Positions 13,296 through 59,812 of a stretch of DNA of 64,000 bases are shown piece after piece. Within the stretch, counting starts at the first letter, position 1, and every line of letters begins with the position of its first letter. A program made the translations under genes and the position numbers. Source of the stretch: Eledone cirrhosa (Eukaryota); assembly GCA_964016885.1 (NCBI GenBank), contig OZ024746.1, positions 51,274,001 to 51,338,000 on the forward strand, given 5' to 3'. Under the pieces are notes generated by a model. The model saw only the letters and a list, made by a program, of their open reading frames with translations. It was not told the origin of the DNA and made no database searches.

Positions 13296-13488
13296 TTCTA
13301 CGCCGTACGTCAAGCCAGCACCTGCACAGACCTTCCCAAACAATATTATCACACACAATCGTAGCGAGACCACCACTTCCGTCTCTTACGCTGGTCGTTT
13401 CCGCTGGAGTGCTTCAGTCAAAACTCCACCCATTTTAACGTCGTTCCTTCCCACCCAGTCACATTAATCACCGCCACTTACACATGCT

Positions 13489-13489
<1 letters not shown>

Positions 13490-13561
<72 letters not shown>

Positions 13562-15823
13562 ACACATACACACACACACACATACACACACGCACACATG
13601 CGTACACACTCACATACACACATGCGGACACACTCACATACACACATGCGGACACACTCACACACACACATGCGTACACACTCACATACCCATGCGTACA
13701 CACACTCACATACACACATACGTAAACACTCACATACACACATGCGTACACACTCACATACACACATGCGAACACATTCACACACACCCATGCGTCCACA
13801 CTCACATACAGACATGCGGACACACTCACATACACACATGCGAACACACTCACACACACCCATGCGTTCACACTCACATACACACATGCGGACACACTCA
13901 CACACACATGCGTACACACTCACACACACACACATGCGTCCACACAAACATATACACATGTGGACACACTCACATACACACATGCGGACACACTCGCATA
14001 CACATGCGTACACACACTCACATACACACATGCGTACACACTCACACACACATGCGTACACATACTCACCTACACACATGCGGACACACTCACATACACA
14101 CATGCGGACACACTCACACACACACATGCGTACACACTCACATACACATGCGTACACACACTCACATACACACATGTATACACACTCACATATACACATG
14201 CGAACACACTCACACACACCCCATGCGTCCACACTCACATACAAACATGCGGACACACTCACATACACACATGCGTACACATACTCACCTACACACATGC
14301 GTACACACTCACACACACGCATGCGGACACACTCATATACACACATGCGTACACACTCACATCCACACATGCGTACACACTCACATACACACATGCGTCC
14401 ACACTCACACACACACATCCGTACACACTCACATACACACAAGCGTACACACTCACATACACACAAGCGTACACACTCACATACACATGAATACGCACAT
14501 TCACATACACACATGCGGATACAATCACATACACACATGCGTCCACACTCACATACACACATGCATACCCACTCACACACACACATGCGCCAACACTCAC
14601 ATAGACACATGCAGACACACTCACGCACACATATGCGGACACACTCACACACACACATACAGTCACATACACACATGCGGACACACACGCTTACACACAT
14701 GCGGACACACTCACATAAACACATGCGGACACACTCACGCACACACATTCGTCCGCACTCACATACACACATGCGGACACACTCACACACACATACAGAC
14801 ACACGCCCATGCGGACACACTCACAAACACACATACAATCACACACACACATGCGGACACACACATGCGGACACACTCACAAACACACATGCGGACACAC
14901 TCACGCACACACCTGCGGACACACTCACATACACACATGCATCCACACTCACTCACACACATGCGGATACACTCACATATACACATGCGTACACACTCAC
15001 GCACACACATGCGTCCACACTCACATACACACATGCGTACACACTCACATACACACATGCGGACGAATTCACATACACACATGCGTACACACTCACATAC
15101 ACACTCACACAAATACACATGCGTACACACACTCACACACACACATGCGTCCACACTCACACACACATACGGACACACTCACACACACATGCGTCCACAC
15201 TCACACACTCACATGCGTACACACTCACACACACATGCGTACACACTCACATACAGACATGCGGACACAGGTGCACACATGGATACAGACAGATAGACAT
15301 ACAGTTAGAGAGACTGATATACCGATAGACATACAGACATACATTCAAAGAATAACCCCAAATCCCCCAGAACATTCTCACACACACACACACACACACA
15401 CATACACACACACACAGACGCACACACACATACACACATACACACACAGACACAGACACACACACACACATACCCAGACACACACACACACACACACACA
15501 CAGACACAGACACACAGACACACACAGACACATAGGCACACACAGACACACACACAGACACACACACACACACGGACATACACACACACACACACACAGA
15601 CACACATACACAGACAAACAGACACAGACACACAGACACACAAACATACAGACACACACATACACACATACACACAGACACACACTGACACACACACATA
15701 CATACAGACACAGAGACACACGGACGCACGCATGCACACACACACATACGCGCGCACAGACAAAGGTTAACACCGTAAATCCCTAAAACGCTTACAGACA
15801 TACACATACACACACACACACAG

Positions 15824-15856
<33 letters not shown>

Positions 15857-15950
15857 AATACTCATACACACATACACACACACACAGAGGAACATAAATA
15901 CACACACGCACACACACAGACGCACGCAAACACAGACACGCACACAGACA
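13490..15950. repeat. (CA)n-derived ~24 bp minisatellite (CACACTCACATACACACATGCGKA)n and flanking CA-rich tracts
   Basis: Unit directly visible over ~13600-15270 and responsible for the HSHTHMRT repeat ORFs. Confidence 0.9.
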
Positions 15951-15980
15951 TGCAAAGCTTAAAACTCCGTATCCCTAAAA

Positions 15981-16049
<69 letters not shown>

Positions 16050-16277
16050 ATACAAACACACCCACAAACACACAGACAGACAGATGTACACACACACAGC
16101 CACAGAGACACCCCAAACATATTCTTACTCTGATTGCCTAGAAGACTGAGACAGAGGCTACCTTACTCTGTATACCAGAATCCTTAGAAGCCCACAGAAC
16201 ACCGCCATTTCCTGAAATCACCTACAGACATAGACATACACACACGCACACAAAGCCCATCCCGTATAAATATTTTA

Positions 16278-16331
<54 letters not shown>

Positions 16332-16430
16332 CACATACGTATACACACACACACACACACATATATATATGCATACGTATACACAGACAGACAGACACAC
16401 CACATATATATATATAAATACATATATATG

Positions 16431-32276: not shown

Positions 32277-32326
<50 letters not shown>

Positions 32327-32474
32327 TCATATATATATATGTATATGTATATATATATGTATATATATATATATAAAGATTTACCTATACATAAAGTCAT
32401 AGATATATATGTGGCAACCGGTCACTTTGTGGCTCAATGAAGAATTAATAAATTAAATAATCACAGCAATATAT

Positions 32475-33198
32475 CATAAATCATGTCCTTAGAATTATTA
32501 GATAAAATATATAACATTTCCTCTCCCAATTAGCATAATTAACCATATATAAAATCAATTAGACCAGGCTATAAGAATTAAAGGCTCCTATGAAGAAATG
32601 TTCGACAAATAACCGAAAGCGGCTTCTTTGCGGTGACCCCAATAGAGTATTTATCCAACATTTCAACAGCATGTAGAAACTGACTAAATATACCGTCAAC
32701 CATACACAATTAGGTGTAAATTTAAACTTAGAAGAAACGTATACATACCGTAATTATATCTCTACCATGGTTTCGTCCGTATTTTTAAATATCCTATTTT
32801 TGGCGCGATCGCTTTGGAAAATTAACTGTCCAATCTTTTCTCCGGATGAGTCTGTTACTCTGGATACATCCTAATAATAGGATATCTAAAAATACGGACG
32901 AAACCATGGTAGAGATATAATTACGGTGTGTGCACGTTTCTTCTAAGTTTAAATTTACACCTAATTGTGTATGGTTGACGGTATATTTAGTCAGTTTCTA
33001 CATGCTATTGAAATGTTGGGTAAATACTCTATTGGGGTCACCGCGAAGAGGCCGCTTTCGGTTATTTGTCGAAAATTTCTTCATAGGAGCCTTTATTCTT
33101 ATAGCCTGGTCTAATTGATTTTTTATATGGTTAATTATGCTAATTGGGAGAGGAAATGTTATATATTTTATCTAATAATTCTAAGGACATGATTTATG
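32475..33198. repeat. ~323 bp inverted repeat (77 bp spacer) of a hammerhead-bearing PLE-like terminus
   Basis: 32475-32798 is the reverse complement of 32876-33198 with scattered mismatches. The right arm runs into (TA)n. Confidence 0.88.
32839..32915 (+). ncRNA. Type I hammerhead with one core substitution (CGGAUGA)
   Basis: TCTC-CGGATGA-GTCTGT...ACGGAC-GAAA-CCATGG-TA-GAGA, with palindromic ACCATGGT stem III. Confidence 0.78.
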
Positions 33199-33343
33199 TA
33201 TATATATATATATAAACTGTATATATATATATTTATATATGTATATATGTATGTTTATATATACATATATATCTATTTATATATATGTATGTACATATAT
33301 ATATATGTATACATGTATATGCATATATATATATATACATATA

Positions 33344-33382
<39 letters not shown>

Positions 33383-33418
33383 TCATGTATATGTATACAT
33401 GTATATATATATACATGA

Positions 33419-33468
<50 letters not shown>

Positions 33469-33634
33469 ATATATACATACATGCATACACACATGTATGC
33501 ATACGTATATAGATATATAAAACTTTTAACCGGAACTCTTACATATTCCATGTTACTTTATCTCACCGTCAAACTCTCCCTTTACTCCGTCTGCCCTCCA
33601 GCATTATCTGTCTTAGTGTCTATCACCTCCACCC

Positions 33635-34547
33635 TACACACACACACACACAGTGACACATACACATACACACTCACACATACACACATACACACAAACA
33701 CACACACAGAGACACTCCGTCACACACACACTCTCATACACTCACATACACATTCACACACACATACACTCGCATAAACACACACACACACATATACAGG
33801 CACTCATACATGCACATACGCACACACACATTCACACACACACTCATACACTCAGACACACACACATGCACATATGCACACACACATTCACACACTCACA
33901 TACACATTCACACACACATACACTCGCACACACACACACACATACACAGACACTCATACACACTCACACATGCGCATACGCACACATACATTCACACACA
34001 CACTCATGCACTCACACACACACACATTCACGTACGAACACAGACATTCACATACACACTCACACACACATACACTCACACACACATACACATACGCACA
34101 CACACATTCACACACACACACTCATACCCTCTCACACACACACATGCACACACACACACACACACACACACGCGCACATACACATACAAACAAGCACTCA
34201 CACATACACGGGGATACGGACAAACGCACATACACATGCACGTGCACACACACTCGCACATCTCTCAACCCTGCCAACCCCGTTTTTTTTGGCTCGTTTG
34301 TTCCTCGATATTCAATTTATCTCAGCCACCCTGATACCCTCAAAACCACCCAGTCCTTCTGGTCGTCACCCACTCCATTCTCTAGCTCTCTTTCAACAAC
34401 GTACCCGAATGACAGTCTTACAAAGCCATCAATCACTTTATCATACCTGGCCACGTTCACAGCTAACTGCTCCACCCGTATCTCGTGTCACGGCCAGATT
34501 TTCTCGGGTGCATGGCTAGCTATTGGAATCACACACACACATACATG

Positions 34548-34578
<31 letters not shown>

Positions 34579-35050
34579 GCACACTCACTCACTCACTCAC
34601 TCACTCACTCACTCACTCACTCACTCACACACATACACAGATACACACAAAGACACCCTCTCTCACCCACACACCCCCACACACACATACACTCACACAT
34701 ACACACACACACTCACATAAACACTCACACATACATACGCACTCTCTCACATACACACGCACATACACACACGCACACACATACACAGATACACACAGAG
34801 ACACTCTCTCTGACACACACACACATACACACACATACGCATACACACATGTACACACTTACATTCTTTTTTCCTCACACATACGCGTGAATAATCACAC
34901 ACATTTACATACACTCACACATACATACATACGCACCCATACAATCATTACACACACATACACACATGTTCACCATACGATCATTCTAAATTCCCGCTCT
35001 CAATTACATGTTATTTCACTAACACATATACGCACACACTCCCATTACAC
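33635..35050. repeat. Degenerate (CA)n/(CACT)n low-complexity region
   Basis: Visible directly and produces His/Thr-rich spurious ORFs. Confidence 0.85.
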
Positions 35051-35302
35051 ATTCTATCACTCGCTATAAACATGTCTATCTATCTATCTATCTATCTATC
35101 TTGATAGAGTGAGACACGCTTCACATCGGCTCTGCTATTCTATCGGAATTTACCCTTACTATAGTAAGTACCAATGAATTTTTTCAGTGCAACACATTTG
35201 GAACACTTGCCCCTGTTATTTAGGGAAACATTTTTACATTTACCCCCTTTTTAGGGGGTAAAATATATAACTATTTTTCTGTAAAACTTCTTTCTTGGAC
35301 GC

Positions 35303-36469
35303 ATGGCGGGAAAGATGGCAGACATGTCTCCCATTAGCTCTGCCACGCCCCCCAAGTCTGAAGAAGAAAAAATGGATACAATAAAACTAGACAACGAAAC
35401 AAACAAGGAAAATGAAAAAACAAATGTTACGGAAAATGAGCAAACGGAAAACAAACAAACAGAAAATAAGAATACAAAAAACAACAAGGCAACTTTCGCC
35501 CAGACAACAAAAAAATCTATAATATATACACCTATTGACTTAACTGCCGCCAGAGAAAAACTGGCAGAAGCAAAAAAGCACATAGTCTTGGAGGGGGGGG
35601 GGATGTTTTCCATTAATTCCCCCCCAGAATTCAAGAAAACGAGACTAGAAAACACTGTTCTGTTTAGAACAATTCTAAACCACACGAGAAAGCCAGCACA
35701 ACCCAGCCAAATGGAGATAGAGTTGTTCCTAAAAGACTATATGAAGAATATTCTCTTCATACGAAAGGACCGACTCTATGGCAGCATTTCTGTTTTAACA
35801 AAAGACAAGGAAACAGCACAGAGGCTTTCCCTAAGCCCACTATCAACAACAGCATACAGCTTCTATCCCTCCTACATGGGTAGAAAAACTCAGATTCAAA
35901 ATACAGACAATGCTGCCCACAATGGACTTCTGGTGGGCTATTGCTGGCTTCATAGACATAGGCGAGGACACAGTGCTGTCAATGGGAAGGCATCTGGAGA
36001 TGCGTTCCTGGGAATGGGCCTCGACTTACTAGTCCAAATGAGGCCCGAAAGAATAGCGCAAATCCCGGATCGCATCTGGCTGGATGACCTCACCCCAATA
36101 TATATAATTGTAGAGGGGAGAAGACCAGCATGCTATTCATGCATGGAAAGGGGACACGTTAAGGCTAACTGCCCGAATCGTATCCCCCAAAAAGTACTAT
36201 TGCCCACACCCACCACAAACAGTACACCAACACCACCCACCTCCAAAAATACACTAATACCACACACAGCAAACAAAATACAGACACCACCAACCACAAA
36301 CACAACACAAACATCACCACCACCAGCACCAAACACAAGCACGACACAAAAATCACCACCACCATCACCAACCACAACACAAACATCACCACCACCATCA
36401 CCAATCACAAGCACGACACAAACATCACCACCACCACCACAAAACATATTCCAAACTAATAATAAATAA
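35303..36469 (+). CDS. Tx1-like ORF1 (gag-like, CCHC zinc knuckle, Pro/Thr-rich repeat tail), probably prematurely stopped
   Basis: VEGRRPACYSCMERGHVKANC (CX2CX4HX4C) and TTQTSPPP repeats. Coding-like sequence continues to ~37151. Confidence 0.75.
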   Translation: MAGKMADMSPISSATPPKSEEEKMDTIKLDNETNKENEKTNVTENEQTENKQTENKNTKNNKATFAQTTKKSIIYTPIDLTAAREKLAEAKKHIVLEGGGMFSINSPPEFKKTRLENTVLFRTILNHTRKPAQPSQMEIELFLKDYMKNILFIRKDRLYGSISVLTKDKETAQRLSLSPLSTTAYSFYPSYMGRKTQIQNTDNAAHNGLLVGYCWLHRHRRGHSAVNGKASGDAFLGMGLDLLVQMRPERIAQIPDRIWLDDLTPIYIIVEGRRPACYSCMERGHVKANCPNRIPQKVLLPTPTTNSTPTPPTSKNTLIPHTANKIQTPPTTNTTQTSPPPAPNTSTTQKSPPPSPTTTQTSPPPSPITSTTQTSPPPPQNIFQTNNK

Positions 36470-37156
36470 AACAGCAACAAATCTACCCCTCCCGCAAAAA
36501 ACAACAACCAGACACCACGTCCCTCCCACCTAGCGCTGAAGAGTTTCCCCCAACTTCTGAAGAAGAAGGAGGAGAAGCCTTCAGACAAGTTAAAAGAAAA
36601 AAACGAAAGCACACACCCAGCACACCACAACAACAAATAACCCACACACAAACACCAACTCCAATCAAAAACACCCACCCTCGACAAACAAAAATAAATC
36701 TGCGCCTCCCCTCTTCGAAACATTGACAGCATCACAAAAAAAGACTTTGCAATACACATATATAAATAAAGAAAACAAAAAACTGTTTAAATTAATAAAC
36801 AATAGCCCTTTGGTGCAGACCGAAGGGCCAAACTTTATCTCAACAGAGAACTTCACCCATTTAAAAATGATAAAGTCCCTCTGGACCTTTATCGTTCCTT
36901 AAAAGAACAATTTAAACAGGACGTGAGCCCCCCCCCCCCCCTGTTTAAAACCGTTAAATCGCGTCCTCTTGAAAGATTTCCCCATAACCTCCCCTCTCCC
37001 TGACACAACTCCAAATACCCCAACCCCACCACACTCGGATACCCCCACACCACCACAAAACATCCCTCCACCCAACACACCCGACCCCATGGAAATTACA
37101 CAACCCGGAGAGGTAGGTGCTTTTCTTTCTTCACTTTCAACACCAAAATAGATCAA

Positions 37157-40100
37157 TTGAGAGTTGGCTGTTTGGATGCGCGTGGCCTGGGCTCAGCTTG
37201 GAAGCAAGCAAAGCTTCTAAGTGATCTCAGGTCACGAAGTATAGATGTGATGGTTGTTTGCGAGAGTCGGATCAGCAGCGTGCGACAGCTGGTTCCCGCC
37301 TTCGATGACTTTGAGATGCACGCATCTCTCTGTCAACCAGGAGGCGGGGGTGGGGTTGCCGTACTGCTGGATAAACGTCTGGCTCTCGACGTACAGATTG
37401 TTCACTCGGACCCGGGGGGTCGATTACTGGTGCTGGACGTCGGAGGCGGTGAAGGCGGGGCTTTCAGACTGGTCGGTCTTTATGCCCCCTTCGGGGCTGA
37501 AAGAGCCGACTTCTTCCAGCGTCTGGAGACTTTTCTAGGAACGTCGCGTTCCCTGCTTTTAGTGGGGGACTGGAATGGAATCCTAGATGCGCGTTGGGAC
37601 TATGCAGAGGCATGTCCCGATAGAGGGGGGTGTAGCAGCCTCAAGGGGTTACTCCATCGATTCGACCTGGTCGATAGATTTCGACTAGATTTTCCAACTG
37701 TGCCAACCTGGACCTGGGAAAACCGCAGTGGTCAATCTAGATCGTACCTAGATAGGTTTTTGGTTAGGAGTAAGGATAGGGACGTATTTAGTTGTCCAGA
37801 ATTGCTCATGGTTGGCTATTCAGATCACAAATTAGTGACCTGCGTGGTCAACCTTGAGAGAACGCATAGACATGGTCCCGTTTACTGGAAGATGAACTTG
37901 TCCTTGCCGGCAAAGGAAGCTTACAGGAACCGGATTAGTAGCTTAGTTAAGATGCGGTTGACGGGAGCGATCGTCAACAGCAGGTGGTGGGTATCTCTAA
38001 AGAGAGAGATTAAAGTAAGTTCGATAGGTTACAGTAAGGAACTAGCGGCGAATAGAAATAGGAGGGAAAGGGAGTTAACAGATAAACTAGAAGAGGCGAT
38101 TAGGAGCGGAGACGTGGCCAGAGTGTTAGCGTCGAGAACGGCGTTGAGCCAGTTCTTTGACGCGAAGCACGAAGGCTGCGTTGTCCGAAGTAAAATACGT
38201 GCTTTAGGAAACGAGGGGACCAAAGCTGTTGGCTGGGCCCGCGTGACAGAAGCCAAGAGTGGAATTAAATCCACCATTCGGTCTTTGCGAGACCAGGATG
38301 GACGGGTGATCCTTGAACCTGAGCGGATGTGCGAGGCCTTTCAAAGGGACTTTGCTCGACTGTTCGGAGGGGGCGGGGGGCCGGACGGGGATGTGGACTT
38401 CGGTCCATACCTCGACGGTCTACCGCGTCTTTCGAGCGGCGAAGCGGAGTGCTGCGAAAGGCCAATCACAGCCACTGAAATCGGTGAAGCGCTCAGCCAA
38501 TGCAGCAGACGCAAATCTCCGGGTCTCGATGGTCTACCATACGAACTTTATTTAGCTATGCCGGTCTTGTTCTCCGAACTCCTCGAGGCTGTCTATTGCA
38601 ACTGGCAACAGAACGGGAGAATTCCCTGTTCTGTGACCAAGGGCGTGGTCACGCTAGTGAGGAAGGACGAGAGCAAGGGGGACGACTTAAGTAACTTTAG
38701 GCCCATAACTCTGCTGAATGCAGAGTTACAGATTTTGGCCAAGGTGTTGGCGAAGAGGTTGGCGCTTGTGGTGGGTGGTTTGGTGGGAGACGCACAGACA
38801 TGCGCTATCCCGTCCAGATCCATTCACGACAACCTCCACCTCATGCGATACATCGTAGAGAGCGTTGGGAACGAACCCGGCTTTGGTGGGGCCCTGATCA
38901 ACTTAGATCAATCTAAGGCGTTCGATAGGGTCGACCATGGTTACCTGGATGCGGTGCTAGCGGCGGCGGGCTTCGGACCCGTTTTCAGGGGCTGGATTTC
39001 TGCCAGCACAGTGGCAACGTCTGCTCTAGGGTTAAAGTAAACGGCTACCTCTCGGAGCCGTTTCAAATCACCCGGTCCATCAGGCAGGGGTGCACCCTCT
39101 CCTCCCTTCTGTACGTATTGGCTCTCGAGCCACTGCTCCGGAAGTTGGAGTTGCTGCGGGGCATACCCCTGGAACCAGGATTGCACAAAGCGGTCTCGGC
39201 CTATGCCGACGACGTAACAGTAATGGTGGCGGACGCCTCGGAAATCGGGGCGATCGCCACCCTACTGGAGGAATACGAAAGGCTGACGGGGGCTAGGCTG
39301 AACCGGGACAAGTCAGTCGGTTTGCAACTCGGAACGCGGAGGGGCAAACCGATGCCGTTAGACGGTGTCGTCGGGCGGTGGACGGAGGGCCCGGTGAAGC
39401 TGCTCGGGGTCTGGTTCGGACCGGACCTCCAGGTGGAGAAGAATTGGGGCGAGGTGACGAGCAGGGTGTTTGCGCTGACCCAGAAGTGGGCCAAGTGCAA
39501 ACTATCACTGAAAGGTCGGGCGGAGGTGACCAACGCTTACATAGCGTCCGTCATCTACTACCGCCTGACCGTCGTGCCTTGCCCCAAGGAAACGCTCACC
39601 ATCATGGAGCGCATGCTCTTCCAGTTCCTCTAGAAGAAGCGGCCTCCCATGGTGAGGAGATCCATCTGCTGCCAGCACCCTTCGAAAGGAAGGCTGGGTA
39701 TGCCGTGGCTGTTGATGCGTAGGCTACGCATTGAGGCTACGGCATCTACAGGTATTCCTCACCGGTCAGCCGGTGGGCCCTGTTTGTGAGGCGAACCTTC
39801 CCACAGCTCGTCTCGCTCACCGAGCTGCAATCCTGGGTGAAGCAAAGACCGAGAAAACTGGGCAACTGGCACACCGAGTGTGCCCAGGCGCTCACGGCTC
39901 TCTGGCAAGCGGACCCGACTATCAGTGGAGAATCCACCTCGACATTCTATAGAGGGCTGGTGGCTAGCAGGGGCGACGACACCCTTGGAGAGTCGCTAGG
40001 CATGGAGGAGGACGAACTGGCCAGCCTGTTCGGTAGAACTTTCGGCCCGGGACCCATGGACAACTTCCAGAGGTCCCTAGCCTGGCAGTGCTACCGGGGG

Positions 40101-40510
40101 GCTCTCTGCCCGTTCGAGAAAAGCTCTACAGACACGGGCGCCCGGGCAGGGATCCCGCGAAAAAGATCTGTCCCAGATGCGTGCGCGACGAGGAAACCGT
40201 TGCGCACGCACTAGTAGACTGCCCGGGCGTTGCCGATCTGTGGGGCTACGTCGAACGACTGCTGTCGTGTGTGGCGCCGATTCGATTGGCCGCCGAGTCT
40301 GTGGTGAACATCAAGCCGCCTCCTCCCTTCAGAAATGAAGCAGAGGCGGTCTTTCTCCGGCCAACACCTGGTTTACTTCTTCCGATACCACTTCGGAAGA
40401 AGGATCAGGATGGAGAGAGAAGTGCTTGGCCCCAGACAGTTTTATGAAAGGTGGGTGAAAGAAGCGAGAATGGCTCGTGTAAATGGGCCTTCTCTCTACA
40501 TTGTTCTGTA
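37157..40510 (+). pseudogene. Tx1-like ORF2: APE endonuclease + reverse transcriptase + C-terminal CCHC, frameshifted
   Basis: GDWN, SYLDRF, SDHK (APE). KSPGLDG, FRPITLLN, LDQSKAFDRVDH, AYADD (RT). CPRC...ETVAHALVDC. Frameshift at ~39004, stop at 39631, later frameshifts. Confidence 0.92.
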
Positions 40511-40757
40511 GGTGAAGAAGTGAAGAGGAAAGGGGGAGCGCCTCCTCTCTGGGCTTCCCCCGCGAAAAGGGTTGCACACTTTTCGGGGGTATGTGCAATC
40601 CCCAACACGCCCCTCCCTTTTGAGGACTTTTTATTATTATATTATTCTTATTGTTATGCCTTTTTCTTTACTCGCATTTATGTAAACTCCCCCTGTGTAT
40701 TTGTCCCTTTCTCTTGTGCCCTAGTGGCAAATAAAGAAATCTATCTATCTATCTATA

Positions 40758-40934
40758 TAATTGTTTCTACTTTAGGCACAAGGCCAGCAATTACCCAGTG
40801 CATTACTGGTACTTTATTTTATCGACCCCGTAAGGATGAAAGGCAAAGTCAACCTCGGCAGGATTTGAACTCAGATCGTAAAGGGACGTAACTATGCTGG
40901 AAAGCATGGCATCCGACCCTCTACCGATACTGCC
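40758..40934 (-). mobile_element. tRNA-derived SINE copy
   Basis: Reverse complement of the consensus. Confidence 0.85.
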
Positions 40935-45164: not shown

Positions 45165-47469
<2,305 letters not shown>

Positions 47470-49941: not shown

Positions 49942-50690
49942 TACACACACAGAAATGTATATATATTTCTGTGTGTATGTATATATTACACACACAGAAA
50001 TGTATATATATATACACACAGAAATATATATACATCCCTTAGCTACTGTACTCTATCTGTTCCTATCTCTCTCTCTCTCCAGCTATCCCTCTCTTTTAGT
50101 CTGTCTGTTTCTCTCACTCTCACTCTTTCTCTTTGTAACTCACTAACATTCCTTCCCTCTATCGCTGTGACAAATGGGGAGATGGAGGAGGAGGAGGAGG
50201 AGAGAGTCACTTCGTCACTTCACCTCTGCCTTTCTTTCTCTCCCCTCTCACTCCCTCATTACGTACAGACATTAGGGCGGTGGATTGGCAGATTCTGTAG
50301 AGAGTCGGACACCATGCTTCATAGCATGGAGTTACGTCCCTTTACGGTCTGAGTTCAAATACCGCCGAGGTTAACTTTGCCTTTCATCCTCACGGTGTCG
50401 ATAAAATAAAGTACCAGTAATGTACTGGGTAATAGCTGGCCTTGTGCCAAAAGTAGAAACAATTATTAGAAACATGCTTCATTTTTACATATCTAAGCAT
50501 TAGTAAAATAACTAATAATTTCAAAAGTAATTTTTCAATTCCAATTGTTATGAACAGCAAAACATTAATAATAATTTTGTTCTAAAAAATATATATACAT
50601 TTCTGTGTGTGTAATATATATATATATACACACAGAAATATATATACATTTCTGTGTGTGTAATATATATATATATATATATATATATAT
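49666..50690. repeat. Palindromic-unit minisatellite ACACACAGAAATATATATACATTTCTGTGTGT + (TA)n, interrupted by a SINE (50274-50468, +)
   Basis: Unit seen repeatedly at 49666-50035 and 50587-50665, and again at 58088-58115 beyond the PLE pair. Confidence 0.8.
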
Positions 50691-53600
50691 GGAAAGTTAT
50701 ATTTAAAATTGTTGGGTTACAACTAGTAAATATTTATAACTGATATAAAAGCACTCGACAAATATTTGGAGTATATTTACAATATTAAATAAATGGAAAC
50801 TATATTTATAAAACCATATTTATTTCATTATATATATTTCGGGGATATCATATTAACAATATGCTATGCCTTCCTCAGACAAAATACAATATAAACAGTT
50901 TTATAGATAAATAGATTCGACATACCGTAACAACACCGACTTGCATTTGAAGAGGTTGAACTGGCAGTGAAAAAATTTTACACAGAGAGAAAGAAAGAGA
51001 GAAAAAAGAAAGAAAGACAGAAAACGAAGAAAAGGAAGAAAAAGAAGAAATGCATGGAACAAAATAGAGAGATGGAAAGATAGATAAAGAGAAGAACTTC
51101 ATGTAAAGAAACAGAAAGAGATATATATATATAGAGAGAGAGGAAATAGAGATAGATACATATATATATAGAAAATTAGGTAGTGGGAGGTCAGTTGAAT
51201 AAATGTATCAATGATACATTTATTTATTTATTTATTTATTTAGCTCTAGTATTAATGTAAGGGAGATATATAGAGAGAGAAAAAAAATATAGAGAGAGAA
51301 AAAAATAGCGAGAGAAAAAATTTAAAAATAGCCAGATATATTCGAGGCGTAAAAACCCTATGTTTTAATGTATTTATAAAACTTCCACTATATTGTAAAT
51401 ATCAGTATTCCTGAATGAGACAAGTATCCATAGTGTGTGAAAATTAATTATCTTATGTTTAGTTTTTTAAAAAAATTCATATGTTTATGTGATAGCTACA
51501 AACATCCATGTGAATCCACATGATCAACTCTGCAAACTCTAAGTTCACGGAAAACATTCTCAATGTGGTATAAAAATTTGAGTATACATATATGTGTATT
51601 ATTATTCCTGTCTTTACTCTACAAGATTATCTATCAAGCAGAAATAGAGAGCAGATTTCAATATACTAATAAAAATATATATCAGAAACAAAACTAAAAA
51701 AATAACAATAATAATAATAAGTAGAAAACTAAAAAAATATTACGAAAGAATATTACATATTAAAAATATTACATATTAAAAAATTTACATATTAAAGATA
51801 TTAAAAATAAAAATAAAAAATATTAGAAAATACTACAATAATAAAAAATAAAAATAAACCACAAAGATCAACCCTTCAAAATTAATTGACAATATATTGC
51901 CAAGTTCATTATAAGCATCAGAGTCGAAAAACAGACAAAGCCAAAAATTATCTATCAAATCACATCTAGCAAAGATCATTTCAAAATGTTTATGATGCCC
52001 AATTTGGTCTACATGTGTTCTTATATTTAATATAGAAGTTTATCTAGTGTAAGGTTTATTCAAAATATTTGGAGCATCAGCTTTTAGGGTAGCTTAATTT
52101 TTCATGAGGAATGTTTAAATAAAAATAAAATAAAAATAAACAATAAAAAAGAATAAAAAGAAGGAATCAAAAATTTATCGGCTAGTTTCCCATATAAATA
52201 TAAATCAAACTAAATATACTACATTTTAAATTTAAATTTATATTTAAACGTTGAGTTTAATCTATGTTTGCAACAACTGAATAAATTTGTCCGTAGATTA
52301 AGGGAATTCTTAGATTTTAGTATAAAGAATATCTCCTCTGCGCAGAGGTCACATGTCTCAGAGGATGAATTAAAAGGAATCCCTCTTGAGACTATATTCC
52401 AAGCCGTCGAATATCTAACGTTATCTAGCTTAAGTTGCCAGAGTACGCCTGATAGTGCCGTTGAAGATTTTTTGCTTGGATCTGTGAAAGAATTCTTGTG
52501 GTTATTATAGCGAAGTTTAAATTCCGTCGATGTGGAACCGACGTAGTTAAAAGAATTAGAGTCAGTATTAACATTACAATTGTATACTATATTTTTAACT
52601 AAGCAGTTGTTATTTAACGGACATTTAGATCTATCTCTACAGTTACATTTGTTAACTTGTATATTATTTATGCTATTATCACTAGGTTTTAAGTTCCTAT
52701 TATTTATTCTATTAATATTTTGTGCTAAATTTTTGGTGGATGAGTAGGTTAATTTAATTGTATGCCTATTGAAAATTGAGTGATACCTATGTGTTCTAGG
52801 GAAGCGATTATCAAGAGCTTTGAAAAATAGTTTAGCGATGTGGGTTTTAATGTTTAGTGAGAAAGGGGGGGGCAAACCAAATTATGTTCCTAGTTCTATT
52901 TCTTTTTTGGCCTTTGGAATTATTGTAATGCTTTCTATTTTAGTTGTTAAGGTTGTTGCCGTAATTAAAAAAGTTGTTACTTTGTTTAGTTTGTCTATCA
53001 TTATCTATGTACACAATCTTATCAGCATATCCTGCCCTAGCTAATGCTTCATTATAGTATTGGGCCTTTTCGTCGAAAATCTTTCTATTCGACGAGATCC
53101 TAGAGATACGTTTTTGAACAGAGTTTACTATAGTGTTTTTGACAGATCTGGGGTGGTTAGAGTTAAAGTTGACATAGTTTAAGTTTTCATTCAACTTGTG
53201 AAAAGGATAGTGGAGACATGTGTTGAGATTTAATGTTATATCTAGGAAATTGACTATTCTATGGTTGTTCTCAATTTCTATTTTAAGATTAAAGTAATTA
53301 AAAAATTTTGTAATTTGTTTACATTTTCTATTTAGTTCAGGGTTATTATTATTAATAAGTAAAAGCATGTCATCTCTATATAAACCTCCGGTAGTACCAG
53401 GTATTTTCCTATGTAGCGAATTGATTAAAAATAAGCCCACAAGGTCAGTTACCTGAGCTGAGTCGGATGATCCCATAGTTATGTCAAAATTGCTATCTCT
53501 ATCTGCTCTGGTCCATAATTTGTCATTAAATTCTATCAAAGTTTTCCTAGTCGATAATATAATATGCATTTCTTTGCTAGTTAGGTCAGTATGTTTGAAT

Positions 53601-54317
53601 GCGTAATTTAGTGCCTTATTTAGTAGACTAGGGGTAATAGAAGAATAATAGTTAGCTATATCAAGTTGAATAAACCTATTATTATTGTTATATTTAATTT
53701 GCTTAAACCACTCAACAACCTCTCCAGTTCCCTTCCACAAGCTCAGGTTAGATACACAATCCAAGTTCTTAATTTGCTGTATCACCCTGTCAAGAATGTT
53801 TTTGCTTAATTTGCCCAGGTCCGATTTTGATGGTGCGATCAATCTAACTGGCAGGTCATTTTCAAAATTCCTCTTGTGATCCTTCATATCGATCTTCGGT
53901 TTCCTGGGCACGAAAGGTTGTGTTCTGTTCTCAATTTCCAACTCGTGCATTATACAAGATGCTTCGACATTCATTTTCTCAAGTTCGGCCTTATCTGCTA
54001 CCTTGTACTTTTTCCTCAGCTCTTTCAGTATGAGGCCATTATACATGTCTTTCTGCACTCCATAGAGGTTGTTGGTCTTGTCAGATTTCACCAAGATCTT
54101 CTCAGTTTTCTCTAAGCTCCCAATGTTATCCTTAATGCCTTTCAGATATTATTGGCCTTTGAAGTTTCTCTTGAATTTGACCCCTTGTATGATAGAAATT
54201 ATATCGTTTTCAAAGTCAGATAAAAGTTTGTTAGGGGGTGGATTTCTTTTAGATTTGAAAACTTTGTTTAAGTCCGAGACATTTTCGTTTGCATTAGATT
54301 TATCAAAGTGGAATGCA
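50689..54317 (-). pseudogene. Inverted, 5'-truncated and disabled copy of the intact PLE
   Basis: Reverse complement of 54505-58050 plus ~90 bp extra 3' tail. Lacks the first ~39 codons. Stops at ~54150 and ~52941, +1 frameshift in the G-run at ~52870. Confidence 0.93.
50821..50886 (-). ncRNA. Type I hammerhead at the 3' end of the inverted PLE copy
   Basis: Minus strand reads TATTTTGT-CTGAGGA-aGGcATAgCATATT gtt AATATGaTATcCCc-GAAA-TATATA-TA-ATGAAATA. Confidence 0.78.
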
Positions 54318-54388
54318 ACAATTTTAAATATAACTTTCCATGTATCTTGCTCCAATACTGTTGAGCGCTTTATATTATAACTGGAAAA

Positions 54389-56602
54389 ATGGAATTCTTT
54401 AAGATTACTTCCTCTCTAAAAGACATACCTCTACCTAGAAACAAAGACTTTATAAAACAATTAATAGATAAATCTGACTCTTTTATAAGGAGAATCAGGT
54501 GGCGTGCATTCCACTTTGATAAATCTAATGCAAACGAAAATGTCTCGGACTTAAACAAAGTTTTCAAATCTAAAAGAAATCCACCCCCTAACAAACTTTT
54601 ATCTGACTTTGAAAACGATATAATTTCTATCATACAAGGGGTCAAATTCAAGAGAAACTTCAAAGGCCAGGAATATCTGAAAGGCATTAAGGATAACATT
54701 GGGAGCTTAGAGAAAACTGAGAAGATCTTGGTGAAATCTGACAAGACCAACAACCTCTATGGAGTGCAGAAAGACATGTATAATGGCCTCATACTGAAAG
54801 AGCTGAGGAAAAAGTACAAGGTAGCAGATAAGGCCGAACTTGAGAAAATGAATGTCGAAGCATCTTGTATAATGCACGAGTTGGAAATTGAGAACAGAAC
54901 ACAACCTTTCGTGCCCAGGAAACCGAAGATCGATATGAAGGATCACAAGAGGAATTTTGAAAATGACCTGCCAGTTAGATTGATCGCACCATCAAAATCG
55001 GACCTGGGCAAATTAAGCAAAAACATTCTTGACAGGGTGATACAGCAAATTAAGAACTTGGATTGTGTATCTAACCTGAGCTTGTGGAAGGGAACTGGAG
55101 AGGTTGTTGAGTGGTTTAAGCAAATTAAATATAACAATAATAATAGGTTTATTCAACTTGATATAGCTAACTATTATTCTTCTATTACCCCTAGTCTACT
55201 AAATAAGGCACTAAATTACGCATTCAAACATACTGACCTAACTAGCAAAGAAATGCATATTATATTATCGACTAGGAAAACTTTGATAGAATTTAATGAC
55301 AAATTATGGACCAGAGCAGATAGAGATAGCAATTTTGACATAACTATGGGATCATCCGACTCAGCTCAGGTAACTGACCTTGTGGGCTTATTTTTAATCA
55401 ATTCGCTACATAGGAAAATACCTGGTACTACCGGAGGTTTATATAGAGATGACATGCTTTTACTTATTAATAATAATAACCCTGAACTAAATAGAAAATG
55501 TAAACAAATTACAAAATTTTTTAATTACTTTAATCTTAAAATAGAAATTGAGAACAACCATAGAATAGTCAATTTCCTAGATATAACATTAAATCTCAAC
55601 ACATGTCTCCACTATCCTTTTCACAAGTTGAATGAAAACTTAAACTATGTCAACTTTAACTCTAACCACCCCAGATCTGTCAAAAACACTATAGTAAACT
55701 CTGTTCAAAAACGTATCTCTAGGATCTCGTCGAATAGAAAGATTTTCGACGAAAAGGCCCAATACTATAATGAAGCATTAGCTAGGGCAGGATATGCTGA
55801 TAAGATTGTGTACATAGATAATGATAGACAAACTAAACAAAGTAACAACTTTTTTAATTACGGCAACAACCTTAACAACTATAATAGAAAGCATTACAAT
55901 AATTCCAAAGGCCAAAAAAGAAATAGAACTAGGAACATAATTTGGTTTGCCCCCCCTTTCTCACTAAACATTAAAACCCACATCGCTAAACTATTTTTCA
56001 AAGCTCTTGATAATCGCTTCCCTAGAACACATAGGTATCACTCAATTTTCAATAGGCATACAATTAAATTAACCTACTCATCCACCAAAAATTTAGCACA
56101 AAATATTAATAGAATAAATAATAGGAACTTAAAACCTAGTGATAATAGCATAAATAATATACAAGTTAACAAATGTAACTGTAGAGATAGATCTAAATGT
56201 CCGTTAAATAACAACTGCTTAGTTAAAAATATAGTATACAATTGTAATGTTAATACTGACTCTAATTCTTTTAACTACGTCGGTTCCACATCGACGGAAT
56301 TTAAACTTCGCTATAATAACCACAAGAATTCTTTCACAGATCCAAGCAAAAAATCTTCAACGGCACTATCAGGCGTACTCTGGCAACTTAAGCTAGATAA
56401 CGTTAGATATTCGACGGCTTGGAATATAGTCTCAAGAGGGATTCCTTTTAATTCATCCTCTGAGACATGTGACCTCTGCGCAGAGGAGATATTCTTTATA
56501 CTAAAATCTAAAAATTCCCTTAATCTACGGACAAATTTATTCAGTTGTTGCAAACATAGATTAAACTCAACGTTTAAATATAAATTTAAATTTAAAATGT
56601 AG
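54389..56602 (+). CDS. Intact Penelope-like element ORF: reverse transcriptase + Cys-rich linker + C-terminal GIY-YIG endonuclease (737 aa)
   Basis: VKSDKTNN, PVRLIAP, IQLDIANYYSSI, TMGS, GLYRDD, VNFLDI, SNHP (PLE RT). IIWFAPP and CNCR...CPL...CL. IVY...YVGST...FKLRY..H and CDLC..E (GIY-YIG). Confidence 0.95.
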   Translation: MEFFKITSSLKDIPLPRNKDFIKQLIDKSDSFIRRIRWRAFHFDKSNANENVSDLNKVFKSKRNPPPNKLLSDFENDIISIIQGVKFKRNFKGQEYLKGIKDNIGSLEKTEKILVKSDKTNNLYGVQKDMYNGLILKELRKKYKVADKAELEKMNVEASCIMHELEIENRTQPFVPRKPKIDMKDHKRNFENDLPVRLIAPSKSDLGKLSKNILDRVIQQIKNLDCVSNLSLWKGTGEVVEWFKQIKYNNNNRFIQLDIANYYSSITPSLLNKALNYAFKHTDLTSKEMHIILSTRKTLIEFNDKLWTRADRDSNFDITMGSSDSAQVTDLVGLFLINSLHRKIPGTTGGLYRDDMLLLINNNNPELNRKCKQITKFFNYFNLKIEIENNHRIVNFLDITLNLNTCLHYPFHKLNENLNYVNFNSNHPRSVKNTIVNSVQKRISRISSNRKIFDEKAQYYNEALARAGYADKIVYIDNDRQTKQSNNFFNYGNNLNNYNRKHYNNSKGQKRNRTRNIIWFAPPFSLNIKTHIAKLFFKALDNRFPRTHRYHSIFNRHTIKLTYSSTKNLAQNINRINNRNLKPSDNSINNIQVNKCNCRDRSKCPLNNNCLVKNIVYNCNVNTDSNSFNYVGSTSTEFKLRYNNHKNSFTDPSKKSSTALSGVLWQLKLDNVRYSTAWNIVSRGIPFNSSSETCDLCAEEIFFILKSKNSLNLRTNLFSCCKHRLNSTFKYKFKFKM

Positions 56603-57940
56603 TATATTTAGTTTGATTTATATTTATATGGGAAACTAGCCGATAAATTTTTGATTCCTTCTTTTTATTCTTTTTTTATTGTTTATTTTTATTTTATTTT
56701 TATTTAAACATTCCTCATGAAAAATTAAGCTACCCTAAAAGCTGATGCTCCAAATATTTTGAATAAACCTTACACTAGATAAACTTCTATATTAAATATA
56801 AGAACACATGTAGACCGAATTGGGCATCATAAACTTTTTGAAATGATCTTTGCTAGATGTGATTTGATAGATAATTTTTAGCTTTGTCTGTTTTTCGACT
56901 CTGATGCTTATAATGAACTTGGCAATATATTGTCAATTAATTTTGAAGGGTTGATCTTTGTGGTTTATTTTTATTTTTTATTATTGTAGTATTTTCTAAT
57001 ATTTTTTATTTTTATTTTTAATATCTTTAATATGTAAATTTTTTAATATGTAATATTTTTAATATGTAATATTCTTTCGTAATATTTTTTTAGTTTTCTA
57101 CTTATTATTATTATTGTTATTTTTTTAGTTTTGTTTCTGATATATATTTTTATTAGTATATTGAAATCTGCTCTCTATTTCTGCTTGATAGATAATCTTG
57201 TAGAGTAAAGACAGGAATAATAATACACATATATGTATACTCAAATTTTTATACCACATTGAGAATGTTTTCCGTGAACTTAGAGTTTGCAGAGTTGATC
57301 ATGTGGATTCACATGGATGTTTGTAGCTATCACATAAACATATGAATTTTTTTAAAAAACTAAACATAAGATAATTAATTTTCACACACTATGGATACTT
57401 GTCTCATTCAGGAATACTGATATTTACAATATAGTGGAAGTTTTATAAATACTAATACATTAAAACATAGGGTTTTTACGCCTCGAATATATCTGGCTAT
57501 TTTTAAATTTTTTCTCTCGCTATTTTTTTCTCTCTCTATATTTTTTTTCTCTCTATATATATCTCCCTTACATTAATACTAGAGCTAAATAAATAAATAA
57601 ATAAATAAATGTATCATTGATACATTTACTCAACTGACCTCCCACTACCTAATTTTCTCTATATATATGTATCTATCTCTATTTCCTCTCTCTCTATATA
57701 TATATCTCTTTCTGTTTCTTTACATGAAGTTCTTCTCTTTATCTATCTTTCCATCTCTCTATTTTGTTCCATGCATTTCTTCTTTTTCTTCCTTTTCTTC
57801 GTTTTCTGTCTTTCTTTCTTTTTTTCTCTCTTTCTTTCTCTCTGTGTAAAATTTTTTCACTGCCAGTTCAACCTCTTCAAATGCAAGTCGGTGTTGTTAC
57901 GGTATGTCGAATCTATTTATCTATAAAACTGTTTATATTG

Positions 57941-58007
57941 TATTTTGTCTGAGGAAGGCATAGCATATTGTTAATATGATATCCCCGAAATATATATAAA
58001 GAAAATA
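57941..58007 (+). ncRNA. Type I hammerhead at the 3' end of the intact PLE (stem I weakened relative to the mirror copy)
   Basis: TATTTTGT-CTGAGGA-stem II-GAAA-TATATA-TA-AAGAAAATA. Confidence 0.72.
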
Positions 58008-58044
58008 AATATGGTTTTATAAATATAGTTTCCATTTATTTAAT

Positions 58045-58096
<52 letters not shown>

Positions 58097-58876: not shown

Positions 58877-59812
58877 AATAATTGTTTCTACTTTTGGTAC
58901 AAGGCCAGCAATTACCCAGTACATTACTGGTACTTTATTTTATCGACCCCGTAAGGATGAAAGGCAGAGGTAACCGCGACGGGATTTGAACTAGAAAGCA
59001 TGGCGTCCAACCCTCTACCGATACTGCCAATTCCCCACCCTCTAATTATAATAATGATTTCACTTATTATAATAATGATTTTATTTATTGGCCACAAGGG
59101 TCGACATGTAGGGGACAATACAAAGACACGGACAGTGGGGGTTTACAATAAGCTCGAGTAAAAGTGCACAATAGCAAAAGCAATAATGAAAATATATAAT
59201 AAACTATGTATAAACGTAACAAAATAAATTCCCCAATAGGTGGGTGAACTACCCAGGGGCGACTCCACCAATACCCCACCAATCCTGAACCACCCGACGC
59301 TTCTAGGGTACCTGGGGAGGGCATCCTTCTCCTCAAATTAATCAGCCTACAGGCGCATTCATCCATCTTTTAGCAAATGTACTAGAGGGGAGGGGGAAGC
59401 ACTTCTCTCTCGACCCTCACCTTCCTTTCCAGGTTAAACATAATAATTGTTTCTACTTTTGGCACAAGGCCAGCCATTAACCAGTACATTACTGGTACTT
59501 TATTTTATCGACCCCGTAAGGATGAAAGGCAAAGTTGTCCTCGGCGGGATTTGAACTCAGAATGGCAAGGGCCGTAACTCTATGCGTCAAAGCATGACGT
59601 CCGACCCTCTACCGATACTGCCAATTTAACAATAATTGTTTCTACTTTAGGCACAAGGCCAGCAATTACTCAGTGTATTACTGGTACTTTATTTTATCGA
59701 CCCCGTAAGGATGAAAGGCAAAGTTAACCTCGGTGGGATTTGAACTCACAACGTAAAGGGACGTAACTCTTTGCTGCAAAGCATGGCGTCCGACCCTCTT
59801 CCGATACTGCCA
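58877..59812 (-). mobile_element. Three tRNA-derived SINE copies surrounding a Tx1-like LINE 3' fragment (~59065-59440)
   Basis: SINE reverse complements at 58877, 59443 and 59632. The LINE piece reads LERKVRVEREVL on -, similar to the ORF2 end near 40400, and has AATAAA with an ATT-repeat tail. Confidence 0.75.

What the first reader, a model, noticed from the sequence alone, without database searches (positions are those of the whole stretch)
54316..54388. PLE 5' leader is the continuation of its own post-hammerhead 3' tail (circularly permuted unit)
Seen: the 26 nt CAACAATTTTAAATATAACTTTCCAT that starts the intact copy (54316-54341) is identical to the extreme 3' end of the inverted copy (50714-50689, minus), ~115 nt downstream of its HHR cleavage site. 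The inversion junction shares a 2 nt CA microhomology. Inference: the true repeat unit runs HHR cut site -> ~190 nt leader -> ATG -> ORF -> 3' UTR -> HHR. Self-cleavage of tandem transcripts would release a ~3.8 kb unit-length, possibly circular, RNA with a 5'-OH end that needs cap-independent translation.
Basis: partly seen in the sequence, partly recalled or inferred. Interest (0 to 1): 0.75.

Follow-up and report, generated by a model that had tools for sequence, protein, structure and literature searches.

The report
Penelope retrotransposon primed at two sites
The repeated 26 bases are the known end-to-start overlap of a Penelope-type jumping gene, but its many copies show that the two ends of each mirror-image insertion fall at two fixed sites, that short copies stop at a likely capped RNA start, and that long copies were likely read around a closed RNA circle.

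Summary
Observation confirmed. The 26 nt are the pseudo-LTR/tail overlap of a Hydra-clade Penelope-like element (3,822-nt unit); their length is a truncation accident. The tail runs into the leader in 38 of 39 other copies. The hammerhead is supported by covariation. The circle idea was proposed in print in 2014. What the copies add: 71 of 71 inverted insertions have one end 50 nt and the other about 140 nt past the cut site. Short arms pile up at an Inr/DPE/splice-donor cassette 140 nt upstream of the cut (46 of 76 arms reaching it), often after an extra G, as expected for a capped RNA; 2 of 101 begin near the cut. So cap-independent translation is not needed. Long copies pass that site (1 of 23 stop) and their two pseudo-LTRs share locus-private alleles, so one source RNA was copied for more than a unit: likely a circle, otherwise an internal template jump. 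No RNA data. Earlier notes of this scan report two fixed ends for non-coding repeats elsewhere in this genome.

The parts
54316..54341 (+). 26-nt overlap at the 5'-truncated start of the direct arm (unit +165..+190; +1 = C of CUGANGA)
50689..50714 (-). Same 26 nt at the 3' end of the inverted arm; distal priming site D (+190)
54316..58049 (+). Direct arm: leader, ORF, 3' UTR, hammerhead; ends at proximal priming site P (+100), then (TA)n
50689..54317 (-). Inverted arm, 5'-truncated at about codon 39, ORF broken by a stop and a 1-nt insertion; carries the 90-nt tail
54316..54317 (.). Head-to-head junction with 2-nt CA microhomology
54389..56602 (+). ORF, 737 aa from the ATG: RT plus C-terminal GIY-YIG-type endonuclease with Hydra-clade motifs (RWR, DKT, YRDD, CxCx5C, CxxC, CxH, no CCHH)
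50814..50893 (-). Type I hammerhead of the inverted arm; core starts 50878, predicted cut after 50829 (AUA), palindromic UAUAUA helix III
57934..58014 (+). Type I hammerhead of the direct arm; core starts 57949, predicted cut after 57998; helix I altered by a private substitution and insertion
50689..50778 (-). Tail between P and D, about 90 nt, present on one arm only
57856..57908 (+). Predicted internal promoter cassette: Inr (A at 57859), DPE-like AGTCG at +28..+32 (57886-57890), predicted splice donor GTATGT from 57902
50919..50971 (-). Same cassette on the inverted arm (Inr A at 50968, donor from 50925)
50663..50688 (.). (TA)n target tract, left flank, inside a local TA/CA minisatellite
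58050..58088 (.). (TA)n target tract, right flank

Best explanation
This is a two-armed insertion of a Hydra-clade Penelope-like retrotransposon whose outer ends lie at two fixed sites 50 and about 140 nt past the hammerhead, and whose long arms were likely copied around a hammerhead-cut, re-ligated 3.8-kb RNA circle, while a likely capped and spliced transcript from an initiator 140 nt upstream of the cut would serve as the message. Steps: (1, shown) tail and leader are one sequence; the 26-nt overlap arises because the direct arm stopped at +165 and the inverted arm began at +190. (2, shown) each inverted insertion has one P and one D end in (TA)n. (3, inferred) the element's protein nicks both strands of a (TA)n tract and primes one end at P and the other at D on one source RNA; the primer likely anneals over AUGUAU, since most D ends read ATAT rather than the element's ATGT. 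(4, inferred) unspliced capped RNA primed near its 5' end gives the 200-280-nt mini arms that stop at the initiator. (5, inferred, least certain) tandem transcripts self-cleave at both hammerheads, the monomer is ligated, and RT reads on past its starting region, regenerating the upstream pseudo-LTR from the same nucleotides as the downstream one. (6, inferred) the two cDNAs are joined head to head by microhomology.
For: Continuity in 38 of 39 loci, 30 reaching the hammerhead core. One P plus one D in 71 of 71 inverted pairs and 12 of 12 in diverged subfamilies. D ends ATAT-type 59 against ATGTAT-type 19. Hammerhead: 96.9% of cells paired, 4 pairs with changes on both sides, core position 7 takes all four bases. 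Stops at -75..-102: 46 of 76 arms against a background of 0.027 per 28 nt; pairs are both-short 14, both-long 11, mixed 1. Inr, DPE at +27/28 in 13 of 14, donor in 27 of 27 arms long enough, same order as D. virilis Penelope. Extra G before arms starting at the Inr A: 22 of 47 and 41 of 100 against 17.8% expected; 7 of 14 inspected G's are not templated by the partner arm. Long arms do not stop there: 1 of 23 on the second pass, 1 of 26 partner arms; 0 of 30 show a cap scar while continuing upstream. Upstream against downstream pseudo-LTR: 0.56-0.59% mismatch within an insertion, 3.2-3.5% between insertions; 19 locus-private alleles shared in 11 of 31 loci; 26 shared by the two arms in 14 of 28 loci. 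No excess recombination between the repeat region and the ORF.
Against: No RNA evidence of any kind. In the one PLE tested in vitro, hammerhead mutants did not change insertion and no RNA-seq reads began or ended at the cut (PMC11167929). Almost no arm begins at the cut, where unligated monomer would leave ends. No arm longer than about 1.4 units was seen among 36 full-length arms (the one candidate triple array was two insertions). No mutation hotspot at the ligation site. Rfam finds no hammerhead here and the monomer's lowest-energy fold is not the ribozyme fold. Private shared alleles inside -90..+50 are 2, somewhat fewer than the roughly 7 that the upstream rate would give (my scaling). 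Part of the pile-up at -89 may come from a near-palindrome that lets the two arms anneal, and half of the G's could come from the partner arm. The splice acceptor is undetermined.
Confidence: 0.5

Rival explanations
1. Same promoter and two-site priming, but no circle: the template is the linear, capped, terminally redundant RNA, and RT jumps within the molecule from the 5' copy of the repeat to the 3' copy, like retroviral strand transfer. Mini arms come from short transcripts of the many truncated copies that have no second copy to jump to. The hammerhead only trims the 3' end or is dispensable.
For: Explains allele sharing, lack of recombination and the absence of ends at +51 equally well. 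Fits PMC11167929 (uncleaved RNA is the substrate in vitro). Junction fillers and rearranged pieces show that this RT changes template.
Against: Needs jumps that succeed in about 95% of passes on both arms (1 of 23 and 1 of 26 stops) and leave no cap scar (0 of 30). PLE RTs are not known to have RNase H (recalled).
Confidence: 0.3
2. One reading: the hammerhead-cut monomer, linear or circular, is both message and template; the unit starts at the cut and is translated without a cap.
For: Hammerhead conservation; unit continuity; more-than-unit copying.
Against: Conserved Inr/DPE/donor and the extra-G signature point to a capped start at -90. The post-cut leader opens with AUG-AAA-UAA and holds upstream AUGs at +51, +62 and +189. 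A linear monomer ends at +50, so it cannot template arms that start at +100 or +190 and read through the cut.
Confidence: 0.1
3. Long copies come from linear read-through transcripts that start far upstream of the element, and the two pseudo-LTRs are made alike afterwards by gene conversion.
For: Would give no stop at -90 and variable pseudo-LTR lengths.
Against: Upstream pseudo-LTRs could only shrink, yet 22 of 36 reach beyond -102, up to -1487. Position-specific differences should recur among daughters: 2 of 77 recur, one at an arm end. Concordance holds for inverted arms too.
Confidence: 0.1

Closest known systems
Hydra clade of Penelope-like elements (Craig et al. 2021, PMC8557442; passages, section 11 and supplement part 2 read)
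   Same: [quoted passage not shown]
   Different: Unit 3.8 kb against generally under 3 kb; tail about 90 nt against 30-40 bp; hammerhead sequence unlike the listed Hydra ones, with a two-pair helix III. The one-end rule is strict here (71 of 71).
Poseidon of Anolis carolinensis, PAc (Frangieh et al. 2024, PMC11167929; parts 1-2 of 4 read)
   Same: Reverse transcription starts inside the RNA at two sites downstream of the hammerhead that bound the tail; both target strands are cut and extended; AT-rich target.
   Different: There the sites lie inside the ORF and are described as not homologous to the target; here they lie in the leader, about 90 nt apart, and D ends suggest primer annealing. 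That paper does not assign one site to each end, and found the hammerhead dispensable in vitro.
Penelope of Drosophila virilis (Schostak et al. 2008, PMC2377424; passages and Discussion read)
   Same: Promoter inside the pseudo-LTR with Inr, DPE and a splice donor 46 bp downstream (44 here); the upstream copy's 3' UTR is the downstream copy's 5' UTR. The paper states that no obvious mechanism regenerates the pseudo-LTR.
   Different: Promoter and intron were shown by experiment there, only inferred here; acceptor unknown here.
PLE minimal hammerheads and the circle hypothesis (Cervera and de la Pena 2014, PMC4209133, parts 1-2 of 4 read); metazoan retrozyme circRNAs (PMC7229834, passages)
   Same: Type I hammerhead with short palindromic helix III in the pseudo-LTR; proposal that ligated circles template more-than-unit reverse transcription.
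   Different: Circles were shown for small non-coding retrozymes, not for a coding PLE; the proposal had no copy-level test in the parts read.

Membership tests
Penelope-like element (EN+) | Single ORF with RT and GIY-YIG endonuclease | tested here: met
   One 737-aa ORF with YRDD and C-terminal VYNC..YVG..F..R..H. No Pfam hit for P0001 itself; one of 14 aligned relatives hits GIY-YIG weakly; no PDB hit.
Penelope-like element (EN+) | Partial tandem (pseudo-LTR) and inverted 5'-truncated copy | tested here: met
   38 of 39 loci read from tail into leader; 28 of 40 leader-selected loci have an inverted pair.
Penelope-like element (EN+) | 30-40-bp tail at one end | tested here: met
   Tail present at exactly one end in 71 of 71, but about 90 nt long.
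Hydra clade | RWK-like motif, DKT, CxCx5C, CxxC and CxH, no CCHH | tested here: met
   RWR, DKT, CNCRDRSKC, CDLC, CKH; conserved in 13 relatives at 33-39% identity.
Hydra clade | Insertion into (TA)n | tested here: met
   Both flanks in the window and nearly all arm ends.
Hydra clade | Groups with Hydra RTs in a tree | not tested
Hydra clade | Generally under 3 kb | tested here: not met
   Unit 3,822 nt owing to a 3' UTR of about 1.4 kb; a descriptive trait, not a diagnostic one.
Type I hammerhead ribozyme | CUGANGA, GAAA, NUH core with helices I-III supported by covariation | tested here: met
   16 pairs, 96.9% paired, 19 cells with changes on both sides, slid controls 36-62% paired (three arms with deleted cores were left out of the alignment). 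Core intact in 29 of 30 and GAAA in 26 of 30 unselected arms. Rfam gives no hit.
Type I hammerhead ribozyme | Self-cleavage | not testable with these tools
   Needs in vitro transcription of monomer and tandem constructs.
Circular RNA intermediate (retrozyme-like) | Covalently closed unit-length RNA in cells | not testable with these tools
   No RNA run available.
Circular RNA intermediate (retrozyme-like) | More-than-unit cDNA from one molecule | tested here: met
   not specific for a circle.
Circular RNA intermediate (retrozyme-like) | Template switch point at the hammerhead cut | tested here: inconclusive
   No parent-daughter pair in the sample; no junction hotspot.
Inr/DPE internal Pol II promoter with 5' intron | Inr, DPE at +28, donor, capped start | tested here: inconclusive
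   Motifs conserved, arm ends and extra G fit; one subfamily lacks the YC of the Inr; no RNA data; motif names and consensus (RGWYV, Inr) are recalled.

The most novel reading that the evidence does not exclude
A coding Penelope-like element splits its RNA into three jobs: a capped, spliced message that has lost its hammerhead; capped unspliced 5' ends that seed tens of thousands of two-armed mini insertions; and a hammerhead-cut, ligated 3.8-kb circle on which two reverse transcriptases, primed 90 nt apart from the two ends of one DNA break, run for more than a unit and regenerate the pseudo-LTR. This would be the first copy-level evidence for rolling-circle reverse transcription by an autonomous eukaryotic retrotransposon.
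Probability: 0.4. Interest if true: 0.78.

Novelty: new member of a known kind. Interest (0 to 1): 0.52.

Why it matters
The overlap itself is textbook Penelope anatomy. The value lies in the family: it is young and large enough to read mechanism from copies. How pseudo-LTRs are regenerated was called unexplained in 2008, a circle was proposed in 2014, and the 2024 in vitro work left later steps open. The copies here rule out simple linear copying for long insertions, tie the two priming sites one-to-one to the two DNA ends, and narrow the question to circle against intramolecular jump, which one whole-genome computation or one RNA experiment can decide. I did not find the one-to-one rule as a count, the two template classes or the allele-sharing test in the papers read or in six library searches; most subscription journals, including the 2005-2006 Penelope reviews, are outside that library.

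Tried and rejected
No RNA holder listed; the four runs laid were contigs of unknown kind with no joints: no evidence either way on expression or splicing. DNA search with the tail found nothing because the words are too common. Hammerhead-dead subfamily: a core deletion seen twice in 30 arms has only 5 copies genome-wide, so it gives no test. Multi-unit array at C1:43.1 Mb: two separate insertions. Mutation hotspot at the cut site: suggested by 6 within-insertion differences, not borne out in 233 arms (10 loci over 8 nt against 37 events over 36 nt). Parent-daughter search: none among about 120 loci. Intermolecular recombination at the repeat: not seen. Special meaning of 26 nt: rejected, other full arms start at +170, +156, +151, +138, +113, +112, +98. 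Pfam, PDB and Rfam gave no useful hit. The protein atlas was unavailable.

Full report
Observation. The 26-mer at 54316-54341 equals the reverse complement of 50689-50714 and occurs only there. It belongs to a two-armed insertion: an inverted arm 54317-50689 and a direct arm 54316-58049, 99.3% alike over 3.55 kb, joined head to head through CA and flanked by (TA)n. I use unit coordinates with +1 at the C of CUGANGA, taken from the natural tandem copy L031 (3,822 nt): predicted cut after +50, 26-mer +165..+190, ATG +238. The direct arm starts at +165, so it lacks the upstream hammerhead and promoter.

What the element is. The ORF gives 737 aa with RWR, DKT, YRDD, CxCx5C, a GIY-YIG-like stretch, CxxC and CxH and no CCHH. 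These are the Hydra-clade marks in PMC8557442 and they are conserved in 13 relatives at 33-39% identity. Pfam and PDB give no hit for this protein, so the assignment rests on motifs; no tree was built. The hammerhead is not found by Rfam, but in 20 distinct sequences from diverged subfamilies 96.9% of cells pair, four pairs change on both sides and slid controls fall to 36-62% (three arms with deleted cores were left out). Core position 7 takes all four bases. Helix III is two pairs around a palindrome, the form said to need a dimer (PMC4209133). Relatedness inflates these counts, and cleavage is untested.

Continuity. Of 39 other loci chosen by the leader (best 40 of 1,098 candidates), 38 read from the tail straight into the leader and 30 reach the hammerhead core. 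This is the pseudo-LTR of Penelope elements, described as the upstream copy's 3' UTR serving as the downstream copy's 5' UTR (PMC2377424), with a tail often at one end only. The number 26 has no meaning: other full arms start at +170, +156, +151, +138 and so on up to -1487.

Two fixed 3' ends. Arms end at P (+100) or D (+190 to +194). Among 95 stretches analysed, 71 had a recognisable inverted pair, and all 71 had one P and one D (43 chosen by an exact hammerhead match on one contig, 28 chosen by the leader); the other 24 were single, interrupted or cut off. Twelve of twelve pairs from diverged subfamilies agree (read, 20 stretches fetched). This matches the two internal start sites of Anolis Poseidon and adds that one site serves each DNA end. 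D ends read ATAT in 59 cases and keep the element's ATGTAT in 19, which suggests that the (TA)n primer anneals over AUGUAU (inference). Since all arms start past the cut and read through it, the template is continuous there: uncut or ligated. A linear cut monomer cannot template them.

A capped start at -90. In the hammerhead-selected set, 46 of 76 arms that reach -75 stop between -75 and -102, mostly at -89/-90, against 0.027 stops per 28 nt further up; 2 of 101 start within +42..+56 (five full-length insertions of that contig were analysed in the other set, which raises the fraction slightly). In 30 arms chosen by sequence past the cut, none starts at +51. At -90 lies YC-ACT, followed by RGWYV at +27/28 in 13 of 14 arms and GGTAYGT at about +44 in 27 of 27 arms long enough, while the sequence between varies (some arms are pairs from one insertion). 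D. virilis Penelope has Inr, DPE and a donor 46 bp downstream. Genome-wide, 47 arms have a base other than the templated C before the Inr A (G 22, A 23, T 2) against 147 with C; all 30 inspected are true starts, most A's come from partner-arm microhomology, and 7 of 14 G's are untemplated. A second, non-palindromic subfamily gives G in 41 of the first 100 of 114 matches (tallied) against 17.8% expected; 2 of 20 inspected were point variants in long arms. An extra G is the mark of a copied cap in full-length L1 insertions (PMC11702581, passage). So a capped RNA likely begins 140 nt upstream of the cut. An intron from -47 to any candidate acceptor (+9, +79, +139, +214) would break or remove the hammerhead core, leaving an ordinary message. 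The post-cut leader, by contrast, opens with AUG-AAA-UAA. Cap-independent translation is therefore unnecessary.

Long copies need more than a linear read. If full-length copies were read to the cap they would stop at -90. Only 1 of 23 does on the second pass, and 1 of 26 partner arms (both p about 1e-6 or lower against the first set). Pairs are both short (14) or both long (11), mixed once: two template classes. Within an insertion the two pseudo-LTRs differ by 0.56% upstream of -90 and 0.59% in -90..+50, against 3.5% and 3.2% between insertions; the own downstream copy is the closest of up to 34 in 18 of 25 loci; 19 alleles seen in only one of 40 loci sit in both copies (11 of 31 loci), and 26 in both arms (14 of 28 loci). 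At family polymorphisms 730 of 741 calls agree, 158 of them minor alleles. Differences do not recur by position (2 of 77) and the repeat region shows no excess recombination with the ORF. One source RNA was thus copied for more than a unit. 'Private' is relative to this sample.

Circle or jump. A ligated hammerhead monomer has no cap end and explains all of this simply, and hammerhead circles exist for small metazoan retrozymes. An intramolecular jump on the terminally redundant capped RNA explains it too, and fits the report that hammerhead mutants do not affect Poseidon insertion in vitro. Tests that could separate them failed for lack of data or gave nothing: no parent-daughter pair, no junction hotspot, no amplified hammerhead-dead lineage, no arm beyond 1.4 units. 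I put the circle at 0.5 and the jump at 0.3.

Novelty. The layout is known and the circle was proposed in 2014. The family is a new Hydra member with a long unit and a 90-nt tail; its hammerhead differs from those listed in the Hydra supplement (only part 2 of 59 was read). The strict one-to-one ends, the cap signature and the allele-sharing test were not in the passages read or surfaced by six searches; the bioRxiv retrozyme paper was read in part 1 and passages only, PMC3846280 in passages (it notes a TCACT initiator-like motif and fixed-length inverted pseudo-LTRs). Earlier notes of this scan describe two fixed ends and probable circles for non-coding repeats elsewhere in this genome; I reached my reading first and did not check theirs. 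Verdict: real, mostly known anatomy, with copy-level evidence that makes an open mechanistic question testable; interest 0.52.

Noticed in passing
own genome, e.g. L103, L107, L112, L113, L135, L136: A large class of 400-500-bp two-armed mini insertions, each arm from about -90 to P or D; the 29-mer just past the cut has 37,312 exact matches. Their junctions differ from one another, so they look like independent events, not one MITE lineage.
   Followed up: partly
window 50689-50778 (-); alignment: The tail holds conserved small hairpins (ACTC..GAGT; TTGTTG..CAACAA) and a YAG at +139 kept in 35 of 36 arms: candidate protein-binding site or splice acceptor.
   Followed up: partly
L139:5654-5945 and window 54317: L139 holds a leader piece ending at unit about +359; the window's inverted arm is truncated at +354. 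Possibly a preferred break near GGTGGCGTGCATTC; two cases only.
   Followed up: no
L112:715-838: 124 nt of unrelated CA-rich DNA sits between the two arms, an apparent capture at the junction.
   Followed up: no
L109:4982-5162; window about 50279-50460 and 58890-59000: A second, unrelated short repeat interrupts one copy and also lies on both sides of the window's insertion.
   Followed up: no
L161, L180, L187-L189: Five copies share a deletion that removes the GAAA half of the hammerhead core; recurrent microhomology deletion or a very small lineage.
   Followed up: partly
full-length arms: Stops per base are about twice as frequent on the second pass (about 0.20 per 100 nt) as on the first (about 0.10), as expected if RT must displace its own earlier strand; hand estimate.
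   Followed up: partly
window 13475-16404 and 32284-33371: A long degenerate tandem array and a 1.1-kb palindromic repeat elsewhere in the window.
   Followed up: no
window 33193-40891 and 45596-47251: Clusters of long open frames (up to 678 aa), probably other decayed retroelements; not examined.
   Followed up: no
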